From Candidatus Latescibacterota bacterium (GTDB lineage Bacteria; Latescibacterota; UBA2968; UBA8231), in assembly GCA_965223905.1 (NCBI GenBank), contig CBDCXV010000011.1, forward strand, positions 160,001 to 224,000: a DNA stretch of 64,000 nucleotides, written 5' to 3'. Shown here in pieces: positions 33,954 to 41,242 of this stretch; the stretch's first letter is position 1, and each line of letters starts with the position of its first letter. The translations under genes were made by a program, and so were the position numbers. The notes under the pieces were generated by a model that searched no databases, was not told the origin of the DNA, and saw only the letters and a program-made list of their open reading frames with translations.

Positions 33954-35768
33954 ATGAGTGCGACCATACACAGACTGTCCGAAAACGTAATCGGCAAGAT
34001 CGCCGCGGGAGAGGTGATCGAAAGACCGGCCTCAGCGGTCAAGGAACTGGTCGAGAACTCTCTCGATGCGGGCGCGGAACGCATCTACGTCGACATCGCT
34101 GCCGGGGGCAGGCAGCTGATCCGCGTGGCCGACGACGGCGCCGGGATGACCGCCGAGGACGCCTGCCTGTCGGTGGAGCGCCACGCCACCAGCAAGATGC
34201 AGAGTCCCAGTGACCTGTTCGCCATCGACACACTGGGATTTCGAGGGGAGGCCTTGGCCAGCATCGCCGCGGTTTCCCGGGTGACCATCGAAACCTGCAA
34301 TGGGGGAGAGGGAGAAGGCACCCGAATCGAGGTGGAAGGTGGAATCCGTACTCATCTCGGTGCCATCGCCAGGGACAGCGGCACTACGGTCAGTGCACGC
34401 AGCCTGTTCTTCAACACCCCGGCGCGTCGAAAATTCCTCCGTCACATGGACACCGAAGCCCGTTACATCACCCTGTGTGTCTCCCAGTTGGCCGTCGCCT
34501 ATCCTGAGGTGGCGTTCCGCGTGACCCACAACGACCGCGTGACCCTCGACCTCCACTCCGGTGACCGCGCGAAGCGCGTCTCGGAGGTGGTTGCGGTCGA
34601 CCCGGCGCTCCTACTGCACGCAGCCTCAAATATCGATGCGGGAGCGGCCGGTCGAATCTCGGTAGAGGTGCTGGCAGGATCCCCGCAAATATGTCAGCGC
34701 AGTCGCACCCGGCAGTACGCGACAGTCCGCCAGCGGCCTGTTTACCACCGGAAATTGAACTCCGCGGTATACGAAGCTTACGGCAGCCTGTTGCCCCACA
34801 ATGCGCACCCGGTTTTTGCGCTCTGGCTCGATATCGATCCCAGGACCGTCGACGTAAACGTCCATCCCACCAAGAAAGAGGTCCACTTCTCCTCGGAAGG
34901 GGATCTCGTCAAAGCAGTGCAATCTATTGTGCGACAGGCACTAGACGTTCCTGAGGCAAGCGCGTTCAGAGCTTCTTCCGGAATCGGCTCGACGGGGGAG
35001 AGACCTGCTTACGGGACATCTACCGGGGCAGCGGGCCACGGCAGGGTCCTGGAGACTCCCGCCGAGCCGTTCGGTCCGGAACACGATACCAACCTCGATC
35101 AGCTGTCACTTTCCCTGTTGCCACCGGTCAGGTTGGGGACCGCTGAAAGTGCTGGTCAACCTCTGACGGGGCAGGAGATTGACCAGCTGTCATCGGACGC
35201 AGAGTCAGCGCCGATTTGGCAGATCCACAACAAGTACATCGCGCTGCCGACCTCGGACGGCATCGCCATAGTCGATCAGCACGTCGCCCACGAACGCATC
35301 CGTTTCGAGGAGGTGCTGGAGGAGCTCGACCGGGAGCAGGGAACCTCCCAGCAGCTGTTGTTGCCTCTGACGCTCGACCTGTCACCCGTAGAGATGATTG
35401 CTTTTCAGGATGCTCGCGGCTTGTTCGAAAAAATCGGCTTTGGAGCACGTGAATTCGGTCCTACCAGCCTGATAGTGGATTCCATCCCTGGCGAACTCAG
35501 GAATTGGGGTGACGGCGCAGTATTTCAGGAGATCATCAGCGACCTGATCGAGGAGAACGAGACTCGTTCGACGACAGGGCAAGCCCTTGCGGCATCGATG
35601 GCTTGCCACACTTCAATTCGGGCAGGAGAACGCCTGAACCAGGAAGAGATGCGGACCCTCGTTCAGCGATTGCTCAAGGCGCGTGAGCCTTTTGCCTGTC
35701 CTCACGGAAGACCCATAATAATCCGGATTCCCCTCAGTAATCTCGACAGGCTGTTCGGTCGCACCTGA
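33954..35768 (+). CDS. mutL: DNA mismatch repair protein MutL
   Basis: IAAGEVIERPASAVKELVENS, GFRGEAL, DVNVHPTK, DQHVAHER, CPHGRP. Confidence 0.97.
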   Translation: MSATIHRLSENVIGKIAAGEVIERPASAVKELVENSLDAGAERIYVDIAAGGRQLIRVADDGAGMTAEDACLSVERHATSKMQSPSDLFAIDTLGFRGEALASIAAVSRVTIETCNGGEGEGTRIEVEGGIRTHLGAIARDSGTTVSARSLFFNTPARRKFLRHMDTEARYITLCVSQLAVAYPEVAFRVTHNDRVTLDLHSGDRAKRVSEVVAVDPALLLHAASNIDAGAAGRISVEVLAGSPQICQRSRTRQYATVRQRPVYHRKLNSAVYEAYGSLLPHNAHPVFALWLDIDPRTVDVNVHPTKKEVHFSSEGDLVKAVQSIVRQALDVPEASAFRASSGIGSTGERPAYGTSTGAAGHGRVLETPAEPFGPEHDTNLDQLSLSLLPPVRLGTAESAGQPLTGQEIDQLSSDAESAPIWQIHNKYIALPTSDGIAIVDQHVAHERIRFEEVLEELDREQGTSQQLLLPLTLDLSPVEMIAFQDARGLFEKIGFGAREFGPTSLIVDSIPGELRNWGDGAVFQEIISDLIEENETRSTTGQALAASMACHTSIRAGERLNQEEMRTLVQRLLKAREPFACPHGRPIIIRIPLSNLDRLFGRT

Positions 35769-35782
35769 ACAGCCGGAATATG

Positions 35783-35800
35783 TAAATCCCTTGGGATTTA
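35783..35800. repeat. 8-bp inverted repeat between converging mutL and recombinase
   Basis: TAAATCCC-TT-GGGATTTA. Confidence 0.6.
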
Positions 35801-35873
35801 GTGAGGATTTGTTCGGAATTTCCAGAACACCCTGTTCTGCGGAATATCAACTGTTCCTTGGGACCTCGACCGG

Positions 35874-36800
35874 TCAGGAACCGTAACGGATTCTCGCTAC
35901 GGCGCCGCGCGCTGCCAACTGGCCGCGCGCATAGTGACCGGGCATTTGCGGCGATGTCCAACGGCCGGCAGTCTGCATCTCCGCAATCGAAGCGCCTCCC
36001 GCAGCAAGAGACTGGGCGCCACCTACCCGTAGGGAGTGACCTGAGACATTTCCCTCGATTCCCGCCGCGGCACACCGGTGCTTGATGATATTCCGGACTG
36101 ATACGGTGCTCAAGGCATGTCTTCCAATCCGGTCGCCGCGGTGAAGACGCCTGAAAACGGCCCCCTCGTCAATCCCGGCTGCATCCATCCAGGTCTTGAT
36201 TCTCCATGCGGTCGGCGCGCCAAGGAACACAACGACCCCGGCTCCTTCCTGGTCGGTTTTCGATTGGCTTATCGTTAGCCGGGCGGATCCGTCGCTTTCA
36301 AAGAAGATGTCCGCCACCTGGACAGCGGAGATCTCCGAAACGCGGAGTAGACCGTCCGAAGCGACCGCCACCAGGGCGGAGTCTCTCAAACCGGCCAACG
36401 AGCCATCGGAAGCTACTGCCGCGGCGGCGTCAGCCTGGGCAAACTGGACACCCTGCACCTGACCCCGTCCGCGGCCCTTTCCCGCGCGACGAATTCCTCC
36501 CAACACTCTGTCCGTGGCCGGACCGGATGGGGAAGTCCCACCTTGCAACTTCGCACGGAACTTGACCGCAGCGACTACCTGGGAGCAGGTCGCCGGAGAC
36601 TTTCCTGCGGCGTGCAAGCCCGCGATATAGTCGGCAAGCAATCCGTCCGTCAAAGGATGGCCGGCAAGGTGCCTGTCGATCCTCCTCAACGCGTGCTGGT
36701 AAGCCCGGCGGGTGTTCTCGGAAACGCTGGCCATGACCAAATCCCGCACTGTCCCGGAATTGGCAAGCCCTTGAGGGGATTCTGTTGTAGTCAGTTCCAT
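35874..36800 (-). CDS. Cre-like tyrosine recombinase
   Basis: LLRVSE (R), SKTDQ (K), SGHSLRVG (HxxR), GRW (W), MPGHY (Y), C-terminal GAVAR helix; SENTRRAY N-terminal helix. Confidence 0.92.
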   Translation of the reverse strand: MELTTTESPQGLANSGTVRDLVMASVSENTRRAYQHALRRIDRHLAGHPLTDGLLADYIAGLHAAGKSPATCSQVVAAVKFRAKLQGGTSPSGPATDRVLGGIRRAGKGRGRGQVQGVQFAQADAAAAVASDGSLAGLRDSALVAVASDGLLRVSEISAVQVADIFFESDGSARLTISQSKTDQEGAGVVVFLGAPTAWRIKTWMDAAGIDEGAVFRRLHRGDRIGRHALSTVSVRNIIKHRCAAAGIEGNVSGHSLRVGGAQSLAAGGASIAEMQTAGRWTSPQMPGHYARGQLAARGAVARIRYGS

Positions 36801-36816
36801 TGCATTTCTGGTTGAA

Positions 36817-36850
36817 ATTACTTTTGTTAACTGTAATTATACAAAGTTTA
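36817..36850. other. candidate lox/dif-like recombination site
   Basis: ATTACTTTTGTTA-ACTGTAAT-TATACAAAGTTTA, imperfect palindrome starting 17 bp from the recombinase ATG. Confidence 0.5.
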
Positions 36851-36864
36851 TTTCCAGGAGTCAA
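36836..36864 (-). promoter_or_regulatory. near-consensus sigma70 promoter of the recombinase
   Basis: Minus strand TTGACT(36864-36859)-N17-TATAAT(36841-36836). Confidence 0.8.
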
Positions 36865-36974
36865 GCAAGGGGTGTCTTGGCGGGCTGTTCACCAGCCGAG
36901 GCGAGATTTGTTTACAAAATAATTTTTACAGGTAATTCTTTTTCAGAAAATCGGACACCCCAAATCAGCCAGGA

Positions 36975-39905
36975 TCAGACTACGATATTGAAAATTCTTC
37001 CCGGGACGTACACAAACCGCCTGGGCCCCCTTGAATCCGGAAGGTAGCGGCGCACGTTGTCAAGCTCGAGGATCAACTCTCTTGCCTCGTCTTCGGTAAT
37101 CCCGGCAGGAACTTCAACGCTCGCCCTAACCTTGCCGTTGACCTGCACAGGCAAGATAACGGTCTCCTCGACCATCAGATCTGTCTGGGGCCGCGGCCAT
37201 TCCTGGACCGAGAGATTCCCGTCGCCGAAACCCCAGATGCTCCACAGCTCCTCTCCAAGGTGAGGGGCGAAGGGTGAGAGCATCAGAATAAGGGAACGCG
37301 CCATCTCGTCCGAAACAGCCTCCTTTTTTACCAGGTCGTTGTTGAGCTCGATCAAGGCCGCGATGGCGGTGTTGAGCCGCAGTCCCTCGATATCATCCGT
37401 CACCTTGGAGATCGTCCGGTGAAGCTTCTTGCGCAACGCGACGTCTTCCTCTTGTCCCGAAGGCATCCTTCTGGCCCTTCCCTCCTGAGAAACCAGGTTG
37501 CGCCACACGCGCTGCAGAAAGCGCTGCATTCCGCGTATTCCCTCCATGCTCCACGGCGTGCTCTGCTCGAGGGGCCCCATGTACATCTCGTACAGGCGCA
37601 GGGTGTCGACGCCGTACTCCTCCCCAACCTCCTCCGGGGGCAGCCCGTTCTTGTAGCGCTTCCCCATCTTGCCGCCGGAACGGGTCAGGGGCTCTCCCGT
37701 CCGCGAGTGGAAGGGCTTGCCATCGCGCAGCTCGACCTCGCGGATGTCGATGTAGACGCCGCGGGCGTCGGTGAAAGCATCGGCCGTTATCATTCCCTGA
37801 TTGAACAGCTTCTTGAACGGCTCGGGTGAGGAGACGTGCCCCAGGTCGAACAGCACCTTGTGCCAGAACCGGGAATACAGAAGGTGGAGCACCCCGTGCT
37901 CGGCGCCGCCGATGTAGAGATCGACCGGCATGAAATGCCGCTCCTTGTCAGCGTCGCAGAAAGCCTCTGGGTTGGCGGGATCGATAAAGCGCACGAAGTA
38001 CCAGCAGGATCCCGCCCACTGGGGCATAACGTTCAGTTCCCTCTCGCATTCGATTTCATTTAGGGAGACCACCCGCCAGTCGTCGCCGGCTCGCCCCAGA
38101 GGCAGCGAAACCGGAGTGTCGGGATCATCCGAGGTTTGCGGACGGAAGTCCTCCATCTCTGGGAGCAGGACAGGCAGGTCGGTAGCGACCGAATAACCCT
38201 CGGGGGTGGTAGCCAGCGGGAAGGGTTCTCCCCAGTACCTTTGCCTGGAAAAGATCCAGTCGCGCAGCTTGTAGCGAACCGCAAATCGTCCCACGCCAGC
38301 GCTTTCCAGTGCGGAGGTGATTGCTGCCTTTGCCCGGGCCGTCGACAGGCCTGTGATGGAGAAGTCGCTACCGCCATCGGCGGACGAATTGATGCTGGTG
38401 CCATCGGCGGTGAAGCACTCCCCCGCTTCCACCCGGGCGGTCTCCGGCGCCTGGACGACTTGGATCACCTCGAGATCGTATTTGCTCGCAAAATCGAAAT
38501 CGCGGTCGTCGTGCGCGGGAACCGCCATAATGGCGCCGGTTCCGTATTCCATCGAGACATAGTCGGCGACAAAAACCGGAATGACAGTGCCGCTGGCCGG
38601 GTTGCGGGCCCATATCCCTGTGAAAATCCCCGACTTCTCCCGCTCGTCGATTTCCCTTGAAACTTCAGTGACTCCCACCGCCGCGGCGACATAGTCGGCA
38701 ACTGCTTCCCGCGGTCCGGACGCCTCCCAGTTCTTCCAGCTTTCTCTCGTGCCTTCGGGCCAGTGTTCCGGAACGAGATACTCGGTACTGTCGGGATCGA
38801 GGAGCGGGTGGCCGGGAGCGACCACCATGAAGGTTGCCCCGAACAAGGTGTCGGGACGAGTCGTGAACACTTCCTGGCGCGACGCCGTTTCGCGGGATTC
38901 CGGCAGCAACAGGTCGAACAGAATTTCCGCCCCCTCGCTGCGCCCGATCCAGTTCCGCTGCATCAGCTTGATCGGTTCCGGCCAATCCAGGGCGTAGCGG
39001 CCGCCGCGTCCGTCGGGGAGGTCCGTTGAATCCAGATCGTGCAAAAGGCGATCGGCGTAGGCGGTGATACGCAGCATCCACTGCCTCAGCGGCCGCTTGT
39101 ACACTGGGAAATCGCCGATTTCGCTACGGCCCTCCCCGGTGACTTCCTCGTTGGCAAGGACCGTGCCCAGCCCAGGGCACCAGTTGACCGTCACCTCCCT
39201 CTGATACGCCAGCCGGTAGTTGTTTAACACCGCGGCCCGCTCCGGTTCCGTCAGCTGGGACCAGTCGGCAGGTGAACGGTCTCTGCGTTCCCCTCCCGGA
39301 AGTGAAACGAGGGTTTCGAGATCGCGGTCGGAGAGAGCACGCCGTCCATTGGCAAGTGCATCTTCCAGCTCCCGGATCGGCACTGCCTTTCCCTTGATCT
39401 CGCGACCTGCGGCGTCCGACTGAACCGCTTCCGGATCGAACCAGCAGTCGTAGAGCTGCAGAAAGATCCACTGGGTCCAGCGGTAGTAGTCCGAGTCCGA
39501 AGTCGCCAGCTCCCGATCCCAGTCGTAGGCCAGACCCAAGGCCTGAAGCTGTCCGCGCATGCGATCGATACATTCGCGTATCGCCGTGGACGGATGCACG
39601 TTGTTGGCGATCGCGTACTGCTCCGCAGGCAGGCCGAAGCTGTCGAATCCCATCGGGTGAAGAACGTTGAATCCCCGCATCCTCTTGAAGCGGCTGTAGA
39701 TGTCGCTGGCGATATAACCCTTGGGGTGGCCAATGTGGAGCCCGTCCCCGCTAGGATAAGGGAACATGTCGAGGACATAGCACTTGGGCCGGGAATCGGC
39801 GAATGGACTTTCCCCGGGACCGTGCGTCTTGAACGTCTTCTCCCTCAGCCAGCCCTGACGCCAGCGACGTTCAATCTCCTGAAACTGATAGCTTCCCCTC
39901 TTCAT
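36975..39905 (-). CDS. leuS: leucyl-tRNA synthetase
   Basis: MFPYPSGDGLHIGH, FTTRPDTLFG, RQRYWGEP, YIGGAEH, VQVNGKVR. Confidence 0.97.
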   Translation of the reverse strand: MKRGSYQFQEIERRWRQGWLREKTFKTHGPGESPFADSRPKCYVLDMFPYPSGDGLHIGHPKGYIASDIYSRFKRMRGFNVLHPMGFDSFGLPAEQYAIANNVHPSTAIRECIDRMRGQLQALGLAYDWDRELATSDSDYYRWTQWIFLQLYDCWFDPEAVQSDAAGREIKGKAVPIRELEDALANGRRALSDRDLETLVSLPGGERRDRSPADWSQLTEPERAAVLNNYRLAYQREVTVNWCPGLGTVLANEEVTGEGRSEIGDFPVYKRPLRQWMLRITAYADRLLHDLDSTDLPDGRGGRYALDWPEPIKLMQRNWIGRSEGAEILFDLLLPESRETASRQEVFTTRPDTLFGATFMVVAPGHPLLDPDSTEYLVPEHWPEGTRESWKNWEASGPREAVADYVAAAVGVTEVSREIDEREKSGIFTGIWARNPASGTVIPVFVADYVSMEYGTGAIMAVPAHDDRDFDFASKYDLEVIQVVQAPETARVEAGECFTADGTSINSSADGGSDFSITGLSTARAKAAITSALESAGVGRFAVRYKLRDWIFSRQRYWGEPFPLATTPEGYSVATDLPVLLPEMEDFRPQTSDDPDTPVSLPLGRAGDDWRVVSLNEIECERELNVMPQWAGSCWYFVRFIDPANPEAFCDADKERHFMPVDLYIGGAEHGVLHLLYSRFWHKVLFDLGHVSSPEPFKKLFNQGMITADAFTDARGVYIDIREVELRDGKPFHSRTGEPLTRSGGKMGKRYKNGLPPEEVGEEYGVDTLRLYEMYMGPLEQSTPWSMEGIRGMQRFLQRVWRNLVSQEGRARRMPSGQEEDVALRKKLHRTISKVTDDIEGLRLNTAIAALIELNNDLVKKEAVSDEMARSLILMLSPFAPHLGEELWSIWGFGDGNLSVQEWPRPQTDLMVEETVILPVQVNGKVRASVEVPAGITEDEARELILELDNVRRYLPDSRGPRRFVYVPGRIFNIVV

Positions 39906-39952
39906 CTCTGTTGTCTTCAAGGTCGTTGTCTCGTCCGATTTGACGGACCTGC

Positions 39953-41242
39953 TCAAGGATACAGCCGCTGCAGCATCCGAGGAAACGGTATGGTCTCGCG
40001 CACGTGCCTGATCCCACAAAGCCACCCTACTACACGTTCTATCCCCATCCCGAAACCGGAGTGCGGCACGGAACCGAATCGGCGCAGGTCGAGATACCAC
40101 TCGAAGGCCGCTCGCGGCAGGCCGTGTTCTTCGAGACGCTCCTCGAGGACCGGGAGATCATCTTCGCGCTGGCCGCCGCCGATGATCTCCCCGTATCCCT
40201 CGGGAGCCAGCATGTCGACGCAGAGAGCGAGCTCGTCTTTCTCCGGATCTCGCTTCATGTAAAATGCTTTAACCTCCGCAGGGTAGCGATGCACGAGGAC
40301 CGGTGAAGTGAACTGTTCCGAAAGAAGGGTTTCGTCGTCTCCGCCCAGATCGGCTCCCCACTCGATATCGCTGCCATTGTTCCGAAGGGTTACGACCGCC
40401 TCGTCGTAGGTCATGCGTGGGAACGGCTTCGACACCGCTTCCAGGGGGGCGAGGTCACGCTCCAGCACGGCGAGTTCGTCACCGCCCTGTTCGAGTACCC
40501 GCTGGACAACGAAACAGAGGAGGTCTTCCGCCACCTGCATGTTGCCGTCGAGGTCGCAGTAGGCGATCTCCGGCTCCATCATCCAGAACTCCGTCAGGTG
40601 TCGCCGCGTCTTCGATTTCTCCGCCCGAAAGGTCGGTCCCAGACAGTAGACCTTTCCGAAGGCCATAGCCGCAGCTTCCATATACAGCTGACCGCTCTGG
40701 GTAAGGAAGGCAGTGTCCCCGAAATAGTCGGTCTCGAAAAGCGTGGTGGTTCCCTCGCAGGCAGCAGGAGTCAGAATCGGGGCATCGATCAGGATGAACC
40801 CCTCCCGAGCCATGAAGTCACGGCAGGCCTGGATGACGTAGCTGCGGATTCTCAGCGTAGCGTGTGGGCGCGAGGAGCGCAGCCAGAGGTGCCTGTTCTC
40901 CATCAGGAAGGACACCCCGTGTTCCTTCGGTGAAATCGGGTATTCGGCGGCCTTGTGAACCGCTTCGATCGAGGAGACCCCCAGTTCGTAGCCGAGCGGG
41001 GAACGCTCATCCTGGCGCACCACCCCCCTGACGATAATCGCTGACTCCTGGGGCAGGTTTCCGGCGCGTTCGAACACCTCCACCCCGACATCCCCCTTGA
41101 ACAGTACACACTGGATGAGACCGGTCCCGTCCCTGACCTGAAGAAAGTGGAGCCTGCCGCTCGACCGCTTGTTGTAGAGCCATCCCCTCAGCTCGACTTC
41201 GCGGCCATCGACGGCGATGTCCCGTATTTCTACTCGTTCCAT
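39953..41242 (-). CDS. asnS: asparaginyl-tRNA synthetase
   Basis: [49 protein letters not shown]. Confidence 0.95.

What the first reader, a model, noticed from the sequence alone, without database searches (positions are those of the whole stretch)
35874..36850. Solo Cre-like recombinase with an adjacent lox/dif-like site: candidate new single-recombinase system
Seen: intact R-K-HxxR-W-Y recombinase with a Cre-like C-terminus, no phage or cargo genes, and directly upstream ATTACTTTTGTTA-ACTGTAAT-TATACAAAGTTTA. The arms match loxP at 8/13 and 10/13; read as 11-6-11 the arms are 8/11 symmetric. Known: Cre-type genes lie near their sites, and XerS/difSL is a single-recombinase module with the site next to the gene; from memory difSL and Campylobacter difH share the core AACTGTAATT seen here (verify). 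Inference: either a Cre-type chromosome dimer-resolution module or a minimal mobile unit; potentially an orthogonal recombinase tool.
Basis: partly seen in the sequence, partly recalled or inferred. Interest (0 to 1): 0.8.

Follow-up and report, generated by a model that had tools for sequence, protein, structure and literature searches.

The report
Cre-like recombinase at the chromosome terminus
A Cre-type recombinase gene with its own lox-like site sits exactly where this bacterium's chromosome finishes replicating, in the slot where its relatives keep a different recombinase next to the dimer-resolution site, so it probably untangles joined sister chromosomes.

Summary
The protein is Cre-like with all six catalytic residues. 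It is not "solo": the genome holds five more full-length copies at 65-69% identity, in mobile contexts and without the site.

The new fact is location. The locus lies at the GC-skew shift, 47-49% of the chromosome from dnaA, in the three complete relatives that carry the gene there. A canonical XerCD-type dif lies 58-100 bp past the gene's stop in those three relatives. In this species a 40-bp deletion has destroyed that dif; contigs from three studies confirm it, and no intact dif was found in the assembly.

In 60 of 76 family genomes the same slot next to dif holds a different single-copy Xer-like gene ("XerX"). The four genomes with the Cre-like gene there lack XerX.

The gene is under strong purifying selection (dN/dS 0.10-0.12). 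Its site overlaps an 11/12-consensus promoter, and the arms are kept across genera. The genus's XerC-like protein lacks the catalytic tyrosine.

Best reading (about 0.5): a natural Cre/lox-type chromosome-dimer-resolution module that displaced XerX. Rivals: a selfish dif-flanked cassette, or a partner of XerD at dif. No activity was tested.

The parts
35874..36800 (-). Cre-type tyrosine recombinase gene, 308 aa
   Evidence: ORF. Pfam PF00589. Best solved-structure relatives are Cre, E 3.9e-16, with the catalytic R-K-H-R-W-Y residues aligned. dN/dS is 0.10-0.12 among three species. RNA contigs of a sponge metatranscriptome cover only 35880-36161 and 36240-36659, which is a weak hint of expression.
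36817..36850 (.). 34-bp lox-like site, read as 13-8-13. On the gene strand it is TAAACTTTGTATA-ATTACAGT-TAACAAAAGTAAT
   Evidence: Exact string and coordinates. Unique in the genome. Arms versus loxP arm 10/13 and 8/13. Orthologous sites in G001 and G019 are 11/13 symmetric, and the spacer differs between species. A conserved block extends downstream of the -10 box.
36836..36864 (-). Sigma-70-type promoter TTGACT-17-TATAAT. Its -10 box lies inside the promoter-side arm and spacer of the site
   Evidence: 11 of 12 consensus positions; 4 promoter-like sites found in the region against a mean of 0.5 in shuffles. The same arrangement (TTGACA-17-TATAAT over the site) is read by eye in G019.
35779..35790 (-). 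Remnant half of the canonical dif (ATTTACATA on the gene strand). A 40-bp deletion relative to G002 removed the central region and the second arm
   Evidence: Three-species alignment. Intact dif in G002 and G001. Contigs of three DNA runs from three studies bridge 35536-35960 with no gap.
36909..36938 (+). Decayed second dif-like site on the leuS side (TGTTTACAAAATAATTTTTACAGGTAATTC)
   Evidence: It is the best hit in the whole assembly to a weight matrix built from 16 family dif sites, but scores only 24.7 bits against 29.0-45.5 for the true sites. It is conserved in G002.
33954..35768 (+). mutL, a flank gene converging on the locus
   Evidence: Pfam MutL_C, DNA_mis_repair and HATPase_c_3. 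It is the flank of this locus in 28 of the 30 XerX loci examined.
36975..40100 (-). leuS, the flank gene on the other side
   Evidence: Pfam leucyl-tRNA synthetase editing domain, tRNA-synt_1 and Anticodon_1. It is the flank in most relatives.

Best explanation
This is a Cre/lox-type site-specific recombination module living in the chromosome's dif locus at the replication terminus of a Latescibacterota genus. The recombinase binds the two arms of the unique 34-bp site just upstream of its own gene. Because the -10 box lies inside the site, binding should also repress its own promoter (inferred). When sister chromosomes are joined into a dimer, the two copies of the site are brought together at the closing septum, probably by FtsK, and recombination between them restores monomers (inferred). 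The module occupies the slot that in most of the family holds a single-copy Xer-like gene ('XerX') immediately next to dif, and it has displaced that gene. In this species the canonical dif has been destroyed by a deletion, so the Cre-like gene and its site are the only intact recombinase/site pair left at the terminus. SHOWN: gene family and catalytic residues, site anatomy and conservation, terminus position, the displacement pattern, purifying selection, loss of dif. INFERRED: binding, recombination at the site, autoregulation, FtsK involvement, the dimer-resolution role.
For: PROTEIN. Cre-type with all six catalytic residues. SITE. It is unique in 7.9 Mb. It overlaps an 11/12 promoter. The arm beyond the -10 box is conserved in three species. 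Arms are 11/13 symmetric in G001 and G019 with different letters, and arms match the loxP arm at 10-11/13 and 7-9/13. TERMINUS. The cumulative GC skew of C11 peaks at 176.5 kb, is flat to about 197 kb, then falls; the site is at 196.8 kb. The same shift lies exactly at the ortholog in G002 and G001. The locus is 47.7% (G002), 47.3% (G001) and 49.0% (G019) of the chromosome from dnaA. A canonical dif lies 58-100 bp past the stop codon in G002, G001 and G019. DISPLACEMENT. XerX is single-copy in 60 of 76 family genomes. A same-strand dif-like site lies 15-185 bp past its stop in 21 of 30 loci examined. The 4 genomes with the Cre-like gene at this locus (G000, G001, G002, G019) have no XerX match. 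None of the XerX loci examined holds the Cre-like gene. SELECTION. dN/dS is 0.10-0.12 within the genus, lower than for xerD (0.19-0.28). LOSS OF DIF. A 40-bp deletion is confirmed by contigs from 3 studies. No other dif was found by mismatch search or weight matrix. OTHER. The genus's XerC-like protein lacks the catalytic Tyr and His. FtsK with a gamma domain is present. Cre-loxP placed in ter replaces XerCD-dif in E. coli (passages of PMC2680272 citing Leslie and Sherratt 1995).
Against: An XerD-like gene is intact and under purifying selection in all three species. A canonical dif is intact in G001, G002 and G019, so Xer/dif may still do the job there and the Cre-like module may be accessory. 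The site in this genome and in G002 is poorly symmetric (7/13 and 5/13), which fits an operator as well as a crossover site. The family is otherwise mobile. There are copies in integrative elements of the same genome, 211 plasmid records hold relatives, and there are homologs in other phyla. G019's copy groups with a copy next to an excisionase-like gene in G091, with 100/100 support. In G019 the unit is bracketed by direct dif-like repeats, like an integrated element. XerX's own function is unknown, so 'displacement of function' is an inference. Terminus position in three syntenic species counts as one evolutionary observation, not three. A dif hidden in unassembled sequence of the 11-contig assembly cannot be excluded. 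No binding or recombination was tested.
Confidence: 0.5

Rival explanations
1. Selfish dif-flanked cassette. The gene with its site is a small mobile unit that entered the dif locus by Xer-mediated recombination, like an integrative element exploiting Xer or an Acinetobacter 'dif module'. The recombinase serves only the cassette or its former plasmid (multimer resolution, cassette exchange) and has no role for the host chromosome.
For: In G019 the lox-like site and gene are bracketed by two dif-like sites in direct orientation at L155 4803 and 5943. One has a perfect ATTTACATAA arm, and the other has a perfect arm on the opposite side. In 5 of the 30 XerX loci the resident gene is flanked by two inverted dif-like sites. 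Cassette content differs within one genus: in g18, 8 of 10 species have XerX, while G019 has the Cre-like gene at the locus. Relatives sit in mobile contexts. The tree gives no support for a single origin of the two terminus lineages.
Against: Integrative elements exploiting Xer are defined by using the host's recombinases (PMC9765430 passage), whereas this unit carries its own. The gene has kept synteny and dN/dS of 0.10-0.12 across three species with dS of 0.6-1.0, which is hard to explain for a single-copy immobile gene with no function. In this genus the upstream dif-like site is decayed and, in G000, the downstream one is deleted, so the unit can no longer move by Xer. The strict either/or pattern with XerX suggests a shared role.
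Confidence: 0.22
2. Partner of XerD at the canonical dif. The Cre-like protein, like XerX before it, supplies the second catalytic subunit that the tyrosine-less XerC-like protein cannot. The 34-bp repeat is only its autoregulatory operator.
For: The XerC-like protein lacks the catalytic Tyr in 10 of 13 readable family sequences, including this genus. The gene has the same geometry to dif as XerX: the stop codon, then the ATTTACATAA arm, then the other arm. The site overlaps the promoter. The inner parts of the lox-like arms (TATAA / TTATA) resemble the dif inner palindrome (CATAA / TTATG).
Against: G000 has lost the dif but keeps the gene intact. No mixed tetramer of Cre-type and Xer-type subunits is known to me; this is from recall and I ran no search for it. 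Other family members carry their own near-perfect repeats upstream and away from any dif, for example TTTATTTCCGATAA-GTGGAT-TTATCGGAAATAAA in G037. That points to homotetramers acting on their own sites.
Confidence: 0.13
3. Ordinary promoter region. The repeat is a chance AT-rich feature of a strong promoter and 5' leader, and the recombinase is a leftover integrase with no site here.
For: The -35 and -10 hexamers explain part of the conservation. Symmetry is only 7/13 here and 5/13 in G002. AT-rich intergenic DNA gives many weak palindromes.
Against: The arm downstream of the -10 box is the best-conserved intergenic block in three species. G001 and G019 have 11/13 symmetry built from different letters. 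4 of 22 other homolog loci scanned have AT-rich repeats of the same architecture upstream. No Rfam family matches the region.
Confidence: 0.05

Closest known systems
Cre/loxP of phage P1 (and Dre/rox of D6)
   Same: Same protein family: the only solved-structure relatives, with all six catalytic residues. The only phage relatives found are P1-like cre and dre genes. The site is 34 bp, readable as 13-8-13, lies just upstream of the gene, and its arms match loxP arms at 10/13 and 8/13. Cre's natural job includes resolving dimers of the P1 plasmid prophage (recalled).
   Different: Only 28-30% identity over about half the length. The gene is chromosomal, at the terminus, between housekeeping genes. 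The site overlaps the gene's own promoter, whereas loxP in X03453.1 lies about 80 bp upstream of the first annotated promoter. The arms are imperfect.
Engineered E. coli dif::loxP plus Cre (Leslie and Sherratt 1995; Capiaux 2002)
   Same: A Cre-type pair placed in ter substitutes for XerCD-dif and depends on FtsK translocation (PMC2680272 passages). The locus here would be a natural counterpart, with dif destroyed in this species.
   Different: That system is an artificial construct with Cre supplied from a plasmid. Here function is only inferred.
Single-recombinase Xer modules: XerS/difSL, XerH/difH, XerL/dif
   Same: The recombinase gene is next to a unique, AT-rich, imperfectly palindromic site at the GC-skew shift, forming one genetic module (PMC5357621, PMC2731167 and PMC9765430 passages). 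The arms differ by one extra base, as described for difSL and difH. The centre resembles the difH core at 9/10.
   Different: The protein is not a member of those families. There is no NCBIfam XerS hit at E<=0.1, and XerH is absent from the solved-structure hits at E<=0.01. An XerD-like gene and, in relatives, a canonical dif coexist with it.
Integrative elements exploiting Xer, and Acinetobacter dif modules
   Same: A short unit is bracketed by dif-like sites at or near dif, with direct repeats in G019. In 5 of 30 XerX loci the resident gene is bracketed by inverted sites with the same arm type facing inward, as the C and D modules are named in the listing of PMC13141974 (abstract only).
   Different: Those elements rely on host XerCD and carry cargo, whereas this unit carries a recombinase with its own different site. 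The dif-like flanks are decayed or deleted in this genus.

Membership tests
Cre-type tyrosine recombinases | Catalytic residues equivalent to Cre R173, K201, H289, R292, W315, Y324 | tested here: met
   The alignment to Cre chains keeps all six residues. The residue list comes from a PMC10250229 passage.
Cre-type tyrosine recombinases | Closest characterised relatives are Cre, Dre and similar proteins | tested here: met
   17 of 17 solved-structure hits are Cre variants. In the phage collection, 13 of 15 records are P1-like phages; of these, 10 are annotated cre, dre or a tyrosine recombinase, at 28-30% identity.
Cre-type tyrosine recombinases | 34-bp target of two 13-bp inverted repeats around an 8-bp spacer, close to the gene | tested here: inconclusive
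   The architecture and position fit. Symmetry is 7/13 in G000 and 5/13 in G002, but 11/13 in G001 and G019.
Cre-type tyrosine recombinases | Recombination between two such sites without host factors | not testable with these tools
   This needs a two-site plasmid assay.
Single-recombinase Xer modules (XerS, XerH, XerL type) | Unique site at the replication terminus / GC-skew shift | tested here: met
Single-recombinase Xer modules (XerS, XerH, XerL type) | Recombinase gene adjacent to its site | tested here: met
   The site ends 16 bp upstream of the start codon.
Single-recombinase Xer modules (XerS, XerH, XerL type) | No XerC/XerD pair in the genome | tested here: not met
   An XerD-like gene (277 bits) is intact. 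An XerC-like gene (159 bits) is present but lacks the catalytic Tyr and His.
Single-recombinase Xer modules (XerS, XerH, XerL type) | Sequence membership in XerS or XerH | tested here: not met
   No XerS model hit at E<=0.1. XerH chains are not among the hits at E<=0.01. XerL was not compared.
Single-recombinase Xer modules (XerS, XerH, XerL type) | Loss causes a dimer-resolution defect; FtsK dependence | not testable with these tools
   Only the presence of FtsK with a gamma domain was shown.
Canonical XerCD/dif | Intact 28-bp dif at the terminus | tested here: not met
   For this species only a half-site remnant is left (confirmed), and nothing else is found in the assembly. The feature is met in G001, G002 and G019.
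Integrative elements exploiting Xer / dif modules | Bracketed by dif-like sites | tested here: inconclusive
   Met in G019, with direct repeats. In this genus one flank is decayed and, in G000, the other is deleted.
Integrative elements exploiting Xer / dif modules | No recombinase of its own; uses the host Xer | tested here: not met
   The unit's only gene is a recombinase.

The most novel reading that the evidence does not exclude
In this sponge-associated Latescibacterota family, chromosome dimer resolution has been rebuilt. XerC has become a catalytically dead subunit in most genera. A third recombinase gene encoded right beside dif (XerX) is part of the machinery. In two lineages a plasmid-type Cre/lox pair has displaced XerX. 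In this species the Cre/lox pair has outlived dif itself and become the sole dimer-resolution system. That would be a natural repeat of the classic dif::loxP replacement experiment, and the first Cre-family chromosomal 'Xer'.
Probability: 0.35. Interest if true: 0.85.

Novelty: new variant of a known kind. Interest (0 to 1): 0.72.

Why it matters
Four things follow if the reading is right.

1. It would add a fifth, phylogenetically separate kind of chromosome dimer-resolution recombinase, after XerCD, XerS, XerH/XerA and XerL. This one would come from the Cre family, which has so far been known as a phage and plasmid tool.

2. It would catch the replacement at several stages. In G001, G002 and G019, dif and the lox-like site coexist. 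In G000, dif is deleted.

3. It would make a long-standing question testable with natural material: why Xer systems get replaced, and whether FtsK control is needed.

4. The family-wide pattern found on the way is a lead in its own right for people working on Xer. That pattern is a single-copy Xer-like gene glued to dif in 60 of 76 genomes, together with a tyrosine-less XerC.

On the practical side, the orthologs give several natural recombinase/site pairs with different arms and spacers: the sites of G000, G001, G002 and G019, plus the near-perfect repeats of G036 and G037. These could serve as candidate orthogonal Cre-type tools.

Two searches of the paper library found nothing on Xer or dif in Latescibacterota and no natural Cre-type system at a terminus. 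Subscription journals are not covered by that library.

Tried and rejected
1. KOPS-like polar 8-mers, meant to pin the switch point. The top 'skewed' words came from a CRISPR array. After masking it, the best words were only 64-77% skewed, so no usable motif emerged.

2. Coarse GC-skew sampling of G002, 20 samples of 20 kb. It was too noisy to define replichores. I relied on the dnaA antipode and the local 400-kb profiles instead.

3. The exact pattern ACATAA-N6-TTATGT across 41 genomes. It hit 8 genomes, but the reversed control pattern hit 9. The pattern alone is therefore not evidence. Position, synteny and the extended arms carry the dif call.

4. The Cre-like fragment in G013, 83% identical over 60 aa. 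It is not at a mutL/leuS locus and was dropped.

5. The 1.6 kb upstream of the three repeated paralog copies. No clear ORF was found and it was not pursued.

6. The loxP letters were not in the text of PMC11260471. They were taken from the annotated P1 record instead.

7. Rfam: no family matches 35000-37600 at E<=0.1.

9. No structure prediction, complex prediction or large protein-database search was run. The sequence match to Cre made them unnecessary for the questions asked.

10. Parts of the 1.6-kb stretch without RNA contig cover (mutL end, leuS end, intergenic regions) are not taken as evidence of silence.
Full report
WHAT IS AT THE COORDINATES

The ORF 35874-36800 on the minus strand encodes 308 aa. 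It matches Pfam Phage_integrase. Among solved structures it matches only Cre and Cre variants, 17 of 17 hits, best E 3.9e-16 over residues 55-304. The alignment keeps the residues equivalent to Cre R173, K201, H289, R292, W315 and Y324 (residue list from PMC10250229). NCBIfam gives only weak sub-threshold Xer-type hits, at most 45 bits.

Its last base is 16 bp upstream of the start codon. Against loxP as annotated in the P1 record X03453.1, the arms match 10/13 and 8/13.

The site overlaps an 11/12-consensus promoter, TTGACT-17-TATAAT, on the gene strand. The flanks are housekeeping genes: mutL, leuS, a class II tRNA synthetase gene, pnp, hprK and rsgA. No Rfam family matches the region.

NOT SOLO

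The window is C11:160001-224000 of a 7.92-Mb, 11-contig genome. That genome holds five more full-length copies at 65-69% identity plus fragments, 19 matches in all. None of them has the site upstream.
- Three copies lie in a 2.56-kb unit repeated at 91-98% identity.
- One follows an integrase and an AlpA-like gene.
- Relatives at 51-62% occur in MAGs titled Gammaproteobacteria, Vicinamibacterales, Dehalococcoidia and others.
- 211 plasmid records hold relatives, at up to 40% identity.
- In phages, 13 of the 15 records are P1-like phages carrying cre/dre-type genes, at 28-30% identity.

The family at large is therefore mobile. The closest relatives' record titles read Candidatus Latescibacterota.

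THE COPY IN THE WINDOW IS DIFFERENT: FIXED, SYNTENIC AND CONSTRAINED

The two other species of the genus carry orthologs at 87% and 84% identity in the same leuS-gene-mutL arrangement. Pairwise dN/dS is 0.10-0.12 with dS of 0.59-0.99. That is lower than for the genus's xerD-like gene (0.19-0.28) and xerC-like gene (0.25-0.34).

Upstream, the best-conserved intergenic block covers the -10 box and the arm downstream of it.

Read as 13-8-13, the sites are as follows:

| Genome | Site |
|---|---|
| G000 | TAAACTTTGTATA-ATTACAGT-TAACAAAAGTAAT |
| G002 | TAAACTTCGTATA-ATTGTAGT-TAACAAAACTAAT |
| G001 | ATTAGTTTGTATA-ATTCACGT-TATCAAAACTAAT |
| G019 (another genus, 64% identical protein) | GTTACTTGGTATA-ATATCCCT-TATAGAAAGTAAC |

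- Arm symmetry is 7, 5, 11 and 11 of 13 respectively.
- The promoter-side arm matches the loxP arm at 10-11/13 in all four.
- The other arm matches at 7-9/13.
- The spacer varies between species while the arms are kept.

In the whole genome only 384 of 15.8 million 13-mers match the loxP arm at 10/13 or better. The site is unique in the genome at up to 9 of 36 substitutions, and each arm is unique at up to 2 mismatches.

Four of 22 other homolog loci scanned have an AT-rich repeat of the same architecture upstream. One example is TTTATTTCCGATAA-GTGGAT-TTATCGGAAATAAA in G037.

I conclude that the repeat is the recombinase's binding site. In G000 and G002 the outer part of one arm has drifted.

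THE LOCUS IS THE REPLICATION TERMINUS AND THE DIF LOCUS

GC skew:
- The cumulative GC skew of C11 rises to about 150 kb, is flat to about 197 kb, then falls steeply. The site is at 196.8 kb.
- In 400 kb around each ortholog, G002 shows a steep rise up to the gene, then a flat stretch of about 65 kb, then a fall.
- G001 shows the mirror image, with the fall starting at the gene.

Distance from dnaA is 47.7% of the chromosome in G002, 47.3% in G001 and 49.0% in G019. In G000, dnaA sits at the skew minimum of contig C1.

Between the recombinase stop codon and mutL there are dif-like sites:
- G002: ATTTACATAA-GAAATA-TTATGTGAAC
- G001: ATTTACATAA-AGTTGT-TTATGTGACT
- G019: AAACATAA-TCTATA-TTATGCGCC

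These have the inner palindrome and 6-bp centre of a canonical dif. Naming the ATTTACATAA arm 'XerD-type' rests on my recall of E. coli dif, not on a call. The bare pattern is not significant genome-wide, because a reversed control hits as often. The dif call rests on position, synteny and the extended arms.

IN THIS SPECIES THE DIF IS BROKEN

Relative to G002, 40 bp are missing. Only ATTTACATA is left, next to the mutL end, at window 35779-35787. Contigs from three DNA runs of three different studies bridge 35536-35960 without a gap. The deletion therefore belongs to the species and is not an error of one assembly.

No other dif was found in the assembly.
- No 28-mer lies within 8 mismatches of the G001 or G002 dif, apart from chance-level hits.
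- A weight matrix built from 16 family dif sites scores those sites at 29.0-45.5 bits. Its best hit in the whole assembly scores 24.7. That hit is a decayed site on the leuS side of this same locus, at window 36909-36938.

A dif in unassembled sequence cannot be excluded.

WHAT RELATIVES KEEP IN THIS SLOT

In 8 of 9 relatives' loci fetched first, a different tyrosine recombinase of about 312-345 aa lies between leuS (or a neighbouring gene) and mutL. I call it XerX. It scores 110-136 bits on the XerD model, and its best solved-structure relatives include XerD, XerA and XerH.

Across all 76 genomes of the family:
- XerX is present in 60, always as one copy, at 57-82% identity between species.
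- In the 30 best loci, mutL flanks it in 28.
- A same-strand dif-like site lies 15-185 bp past its stop in 21 of those 30.
- Five loci have a second, inverted dif-like site on the other side.
- Seven loci have no site above threshold.
- The locus is 46.7% (G004) and 49.6% (G010) of the chromosome from dnaA.

The four genomes with the Cre-like gene in the slot (G000, G001, G002, G019) have no XerX match. The XerX-bearing genomes that have Cre-like homologs (G012, G065, G073, G078, G091) keep them elsewhere. The Cre-like gene has the same geometry to dif as XerX: stop codon, then the ATTTACATAA arm, then the other arm.

Within genus g18, 8 of 10 species have XerX and G019 has the Cre-like gene instead. 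The tree puts G019's copy with G091's copy (100/100 support). G091's copy follows an excisionase-like gene and is not at the terminus. The tree does not put G019 with the genus-g1 terminus clade, which itself has 100/100 support. Deeper forks are unresolved. Two independent captures are likely but not proven.

STATE OF THE CLASSICAL XER GENES

The genome has an XerD-like gene (277 bits) with R, R, H and Y in place. The His of the HxxR motif is Gly or Ala in this genus, and Gln in two other genera.

The XerC-like gene (159 bits) lacks the catalytic Tyr and the preceding His in all three species. The same loss is seen in 10 of 13 readable family sequences; the gene is intact in G010, G012 and G017. 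Two rows were dropped because my ORF extraction took the wrong frame.

FtsK with a gamma domain is present.

HOW IT MOST LIKELY WORKS

A unique site plus its recombinase can only recombine when two copies meet. That means on a chromosome dimer or between sisters. The terminus is where such a pair is useful. In E. coli, Cre-loxP placed in ter substitutes for XerCD-dif and needs FtsK translocation to give simple products (PMC2680272 passages).

My best reading is built on four observations:
- the either/or pattern with a conserved dif-adjacent gene;
- strong purifying selection;
- a dead XerC;
- loss of dif in this species.

Together they point to a natural Cre/lox-type dimer-resolution module, autoregulated by the overlap of site and promoter (confidence 0.5). 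Every biochemical step in that reading is inferred.

The main rival is a selfish cassette that entered the dif locus by Xer-mediated exchange (0.22). The direct dif-like repeats around the unit in G019 and the mobile relatives speak for it. The long-kept synteny and the selection speak against it.

A third reading makes the protein XerD's partner at dif, with the repeat as an operator (0.13). G000's lost dif and the homologs' own sites elsewhere speak against it.

A pure-promoter reading (0.05) does not explain the conserved second arm.

COMPARISON WITH KNOWN SYSTEMS

It works like the XerS/difSL, XerH/difH and XerL modules: gene beside a unique terminus site. It is not a member of those protein families, and it coexists with an XerD-like gene. 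It is a member of the Cre type by sequence and catalytic residues.

EXPRESSION

RNA contigs of one sponge metatranscriptome run cover only 35880-36161 and 36240-36659, both inside the gene, at depth 2.8-3.4. This is a weak hint of expression, because DNA carry-over cannot be excluded.

In two of the DNA runs a C is inserted after 36816, just outside the site. A low-depth relative in one of those runs differs at 36832-36833, inside the spacer.

LITERATURE

- I saw passages (find mode) of PMC5357621, PMC2731167, PMC3025954, PMC2680272, PMC10250229, PMC9765430 and PMC11260471.
- For the dif-module papers I saw only the search listing and abstracts.
- Supplements were not seen. Dif tables in the supplements of PMC3025954 might hold sites of related phyla.
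- Searches found no paper on Xer or dif in Latescibacterota, and none on a natural Cre-type system at a terminus.

Noticed in passing
Relatives' loci L145-L153 and L184-L213 (the leuS-mutL slot of family genomes): A single-copy Xer-like recombinase ('XerX', about 312-345 aa) is encoded directly beside the canonical dif in 60 of 76 family genomes. In 5 of 30 loci it is bracketed by two inverted dif-like sites. This dif-adjacent third recombinase looks undescribed.
   Followed up: partly
G000:C1:244709-245575, with orthologs in L159, L160 and L163-L177: The XerC-like protein has lost the catalytic tyrosine and the preceding histidine in 10 of 13 readable family sequences. It is nevertheless conserved (dN/dS 0.25-0.34 in this genus). 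This suggests a non-catalytic subunit.
   Followed up: partly
G000:C10:475712-475743 and C10:1641806-1641837: A second Cre-like family, 35% identical to the window's protein and present in two copies, has a strong 13-6-13 palindrome about 170 bp upstream of each gene: TTGCTCCTGATAA-CAATAG-TTATCGGGAGCAA. It is a candidate recombinase/site pair.
   Followed up: no
L020 (G036) and L021 (G037), about 200 bp upstream of the homolog: A 14-6-14 inverted repeat, TTTATTTCCGATAA-GTGGAT-TTATCGGAAATAAA in G037 and one base different in G036, lies upstream of a 51% identical homolog. In G036 the locus is about 0.8 Mb from dnaA, so it is not at the terminus.
   Followed up: partly
G000:C11:365942-370418 (outside the window): A large CRISPR-like array of about 75 repeats with a 61-nt period. 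It produced a false signal of strand-skewed words.
   Followed up: no
Window about 1-36800 (C11:148-197 kb); G002 1835-1900 kb; G001 1660-1708 kb: On the mutL side of dif, all three species have a 45-65 kb stretch with no net GC skew before the opposite skew begins. The skew shift therefore abuts dif on one side only. This is unexplained.
   Followed up: no
G000:C10:43648-46212, C9:475021-477583 and C9:787862-790433: A 2.56-kb unit is repeated three times at 91-98% identity. It consists of a paralog of the recombinase preceded by about 1.6 kb without a clear ORF. Next to one copy is a 1.67-kb insertion-sequence-like repeat with at least 10 copies in the genome.
   Followed up: partly
L122-L124 (a 23,101-bp record titled Vicinamibacterales, 'chromosome: 2'): Three identical-scoring copies of a 58% identical homolog are spaced 9,605 bp apart. 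This looks like a small plasmid of about 9.6 kb assembled as a concatemer.
   Followed up: no
G000:C10:1550534-1551379 and the XerD orthologs (L157, L158, L161): In the XerD-like protein of this genus, the His of the HxxR motif is Gly or Ala. It is Gln in G017 and G021, and His in G010, G012 and G036.
   Followed up: no
Window 36816-36833: Population variants in public runs. A C is inserted after 36816, just outside the site, in runs of two studies. A low-depth relative has two changes inside the spacer, at 36832 and 36833.
   Followed up: no
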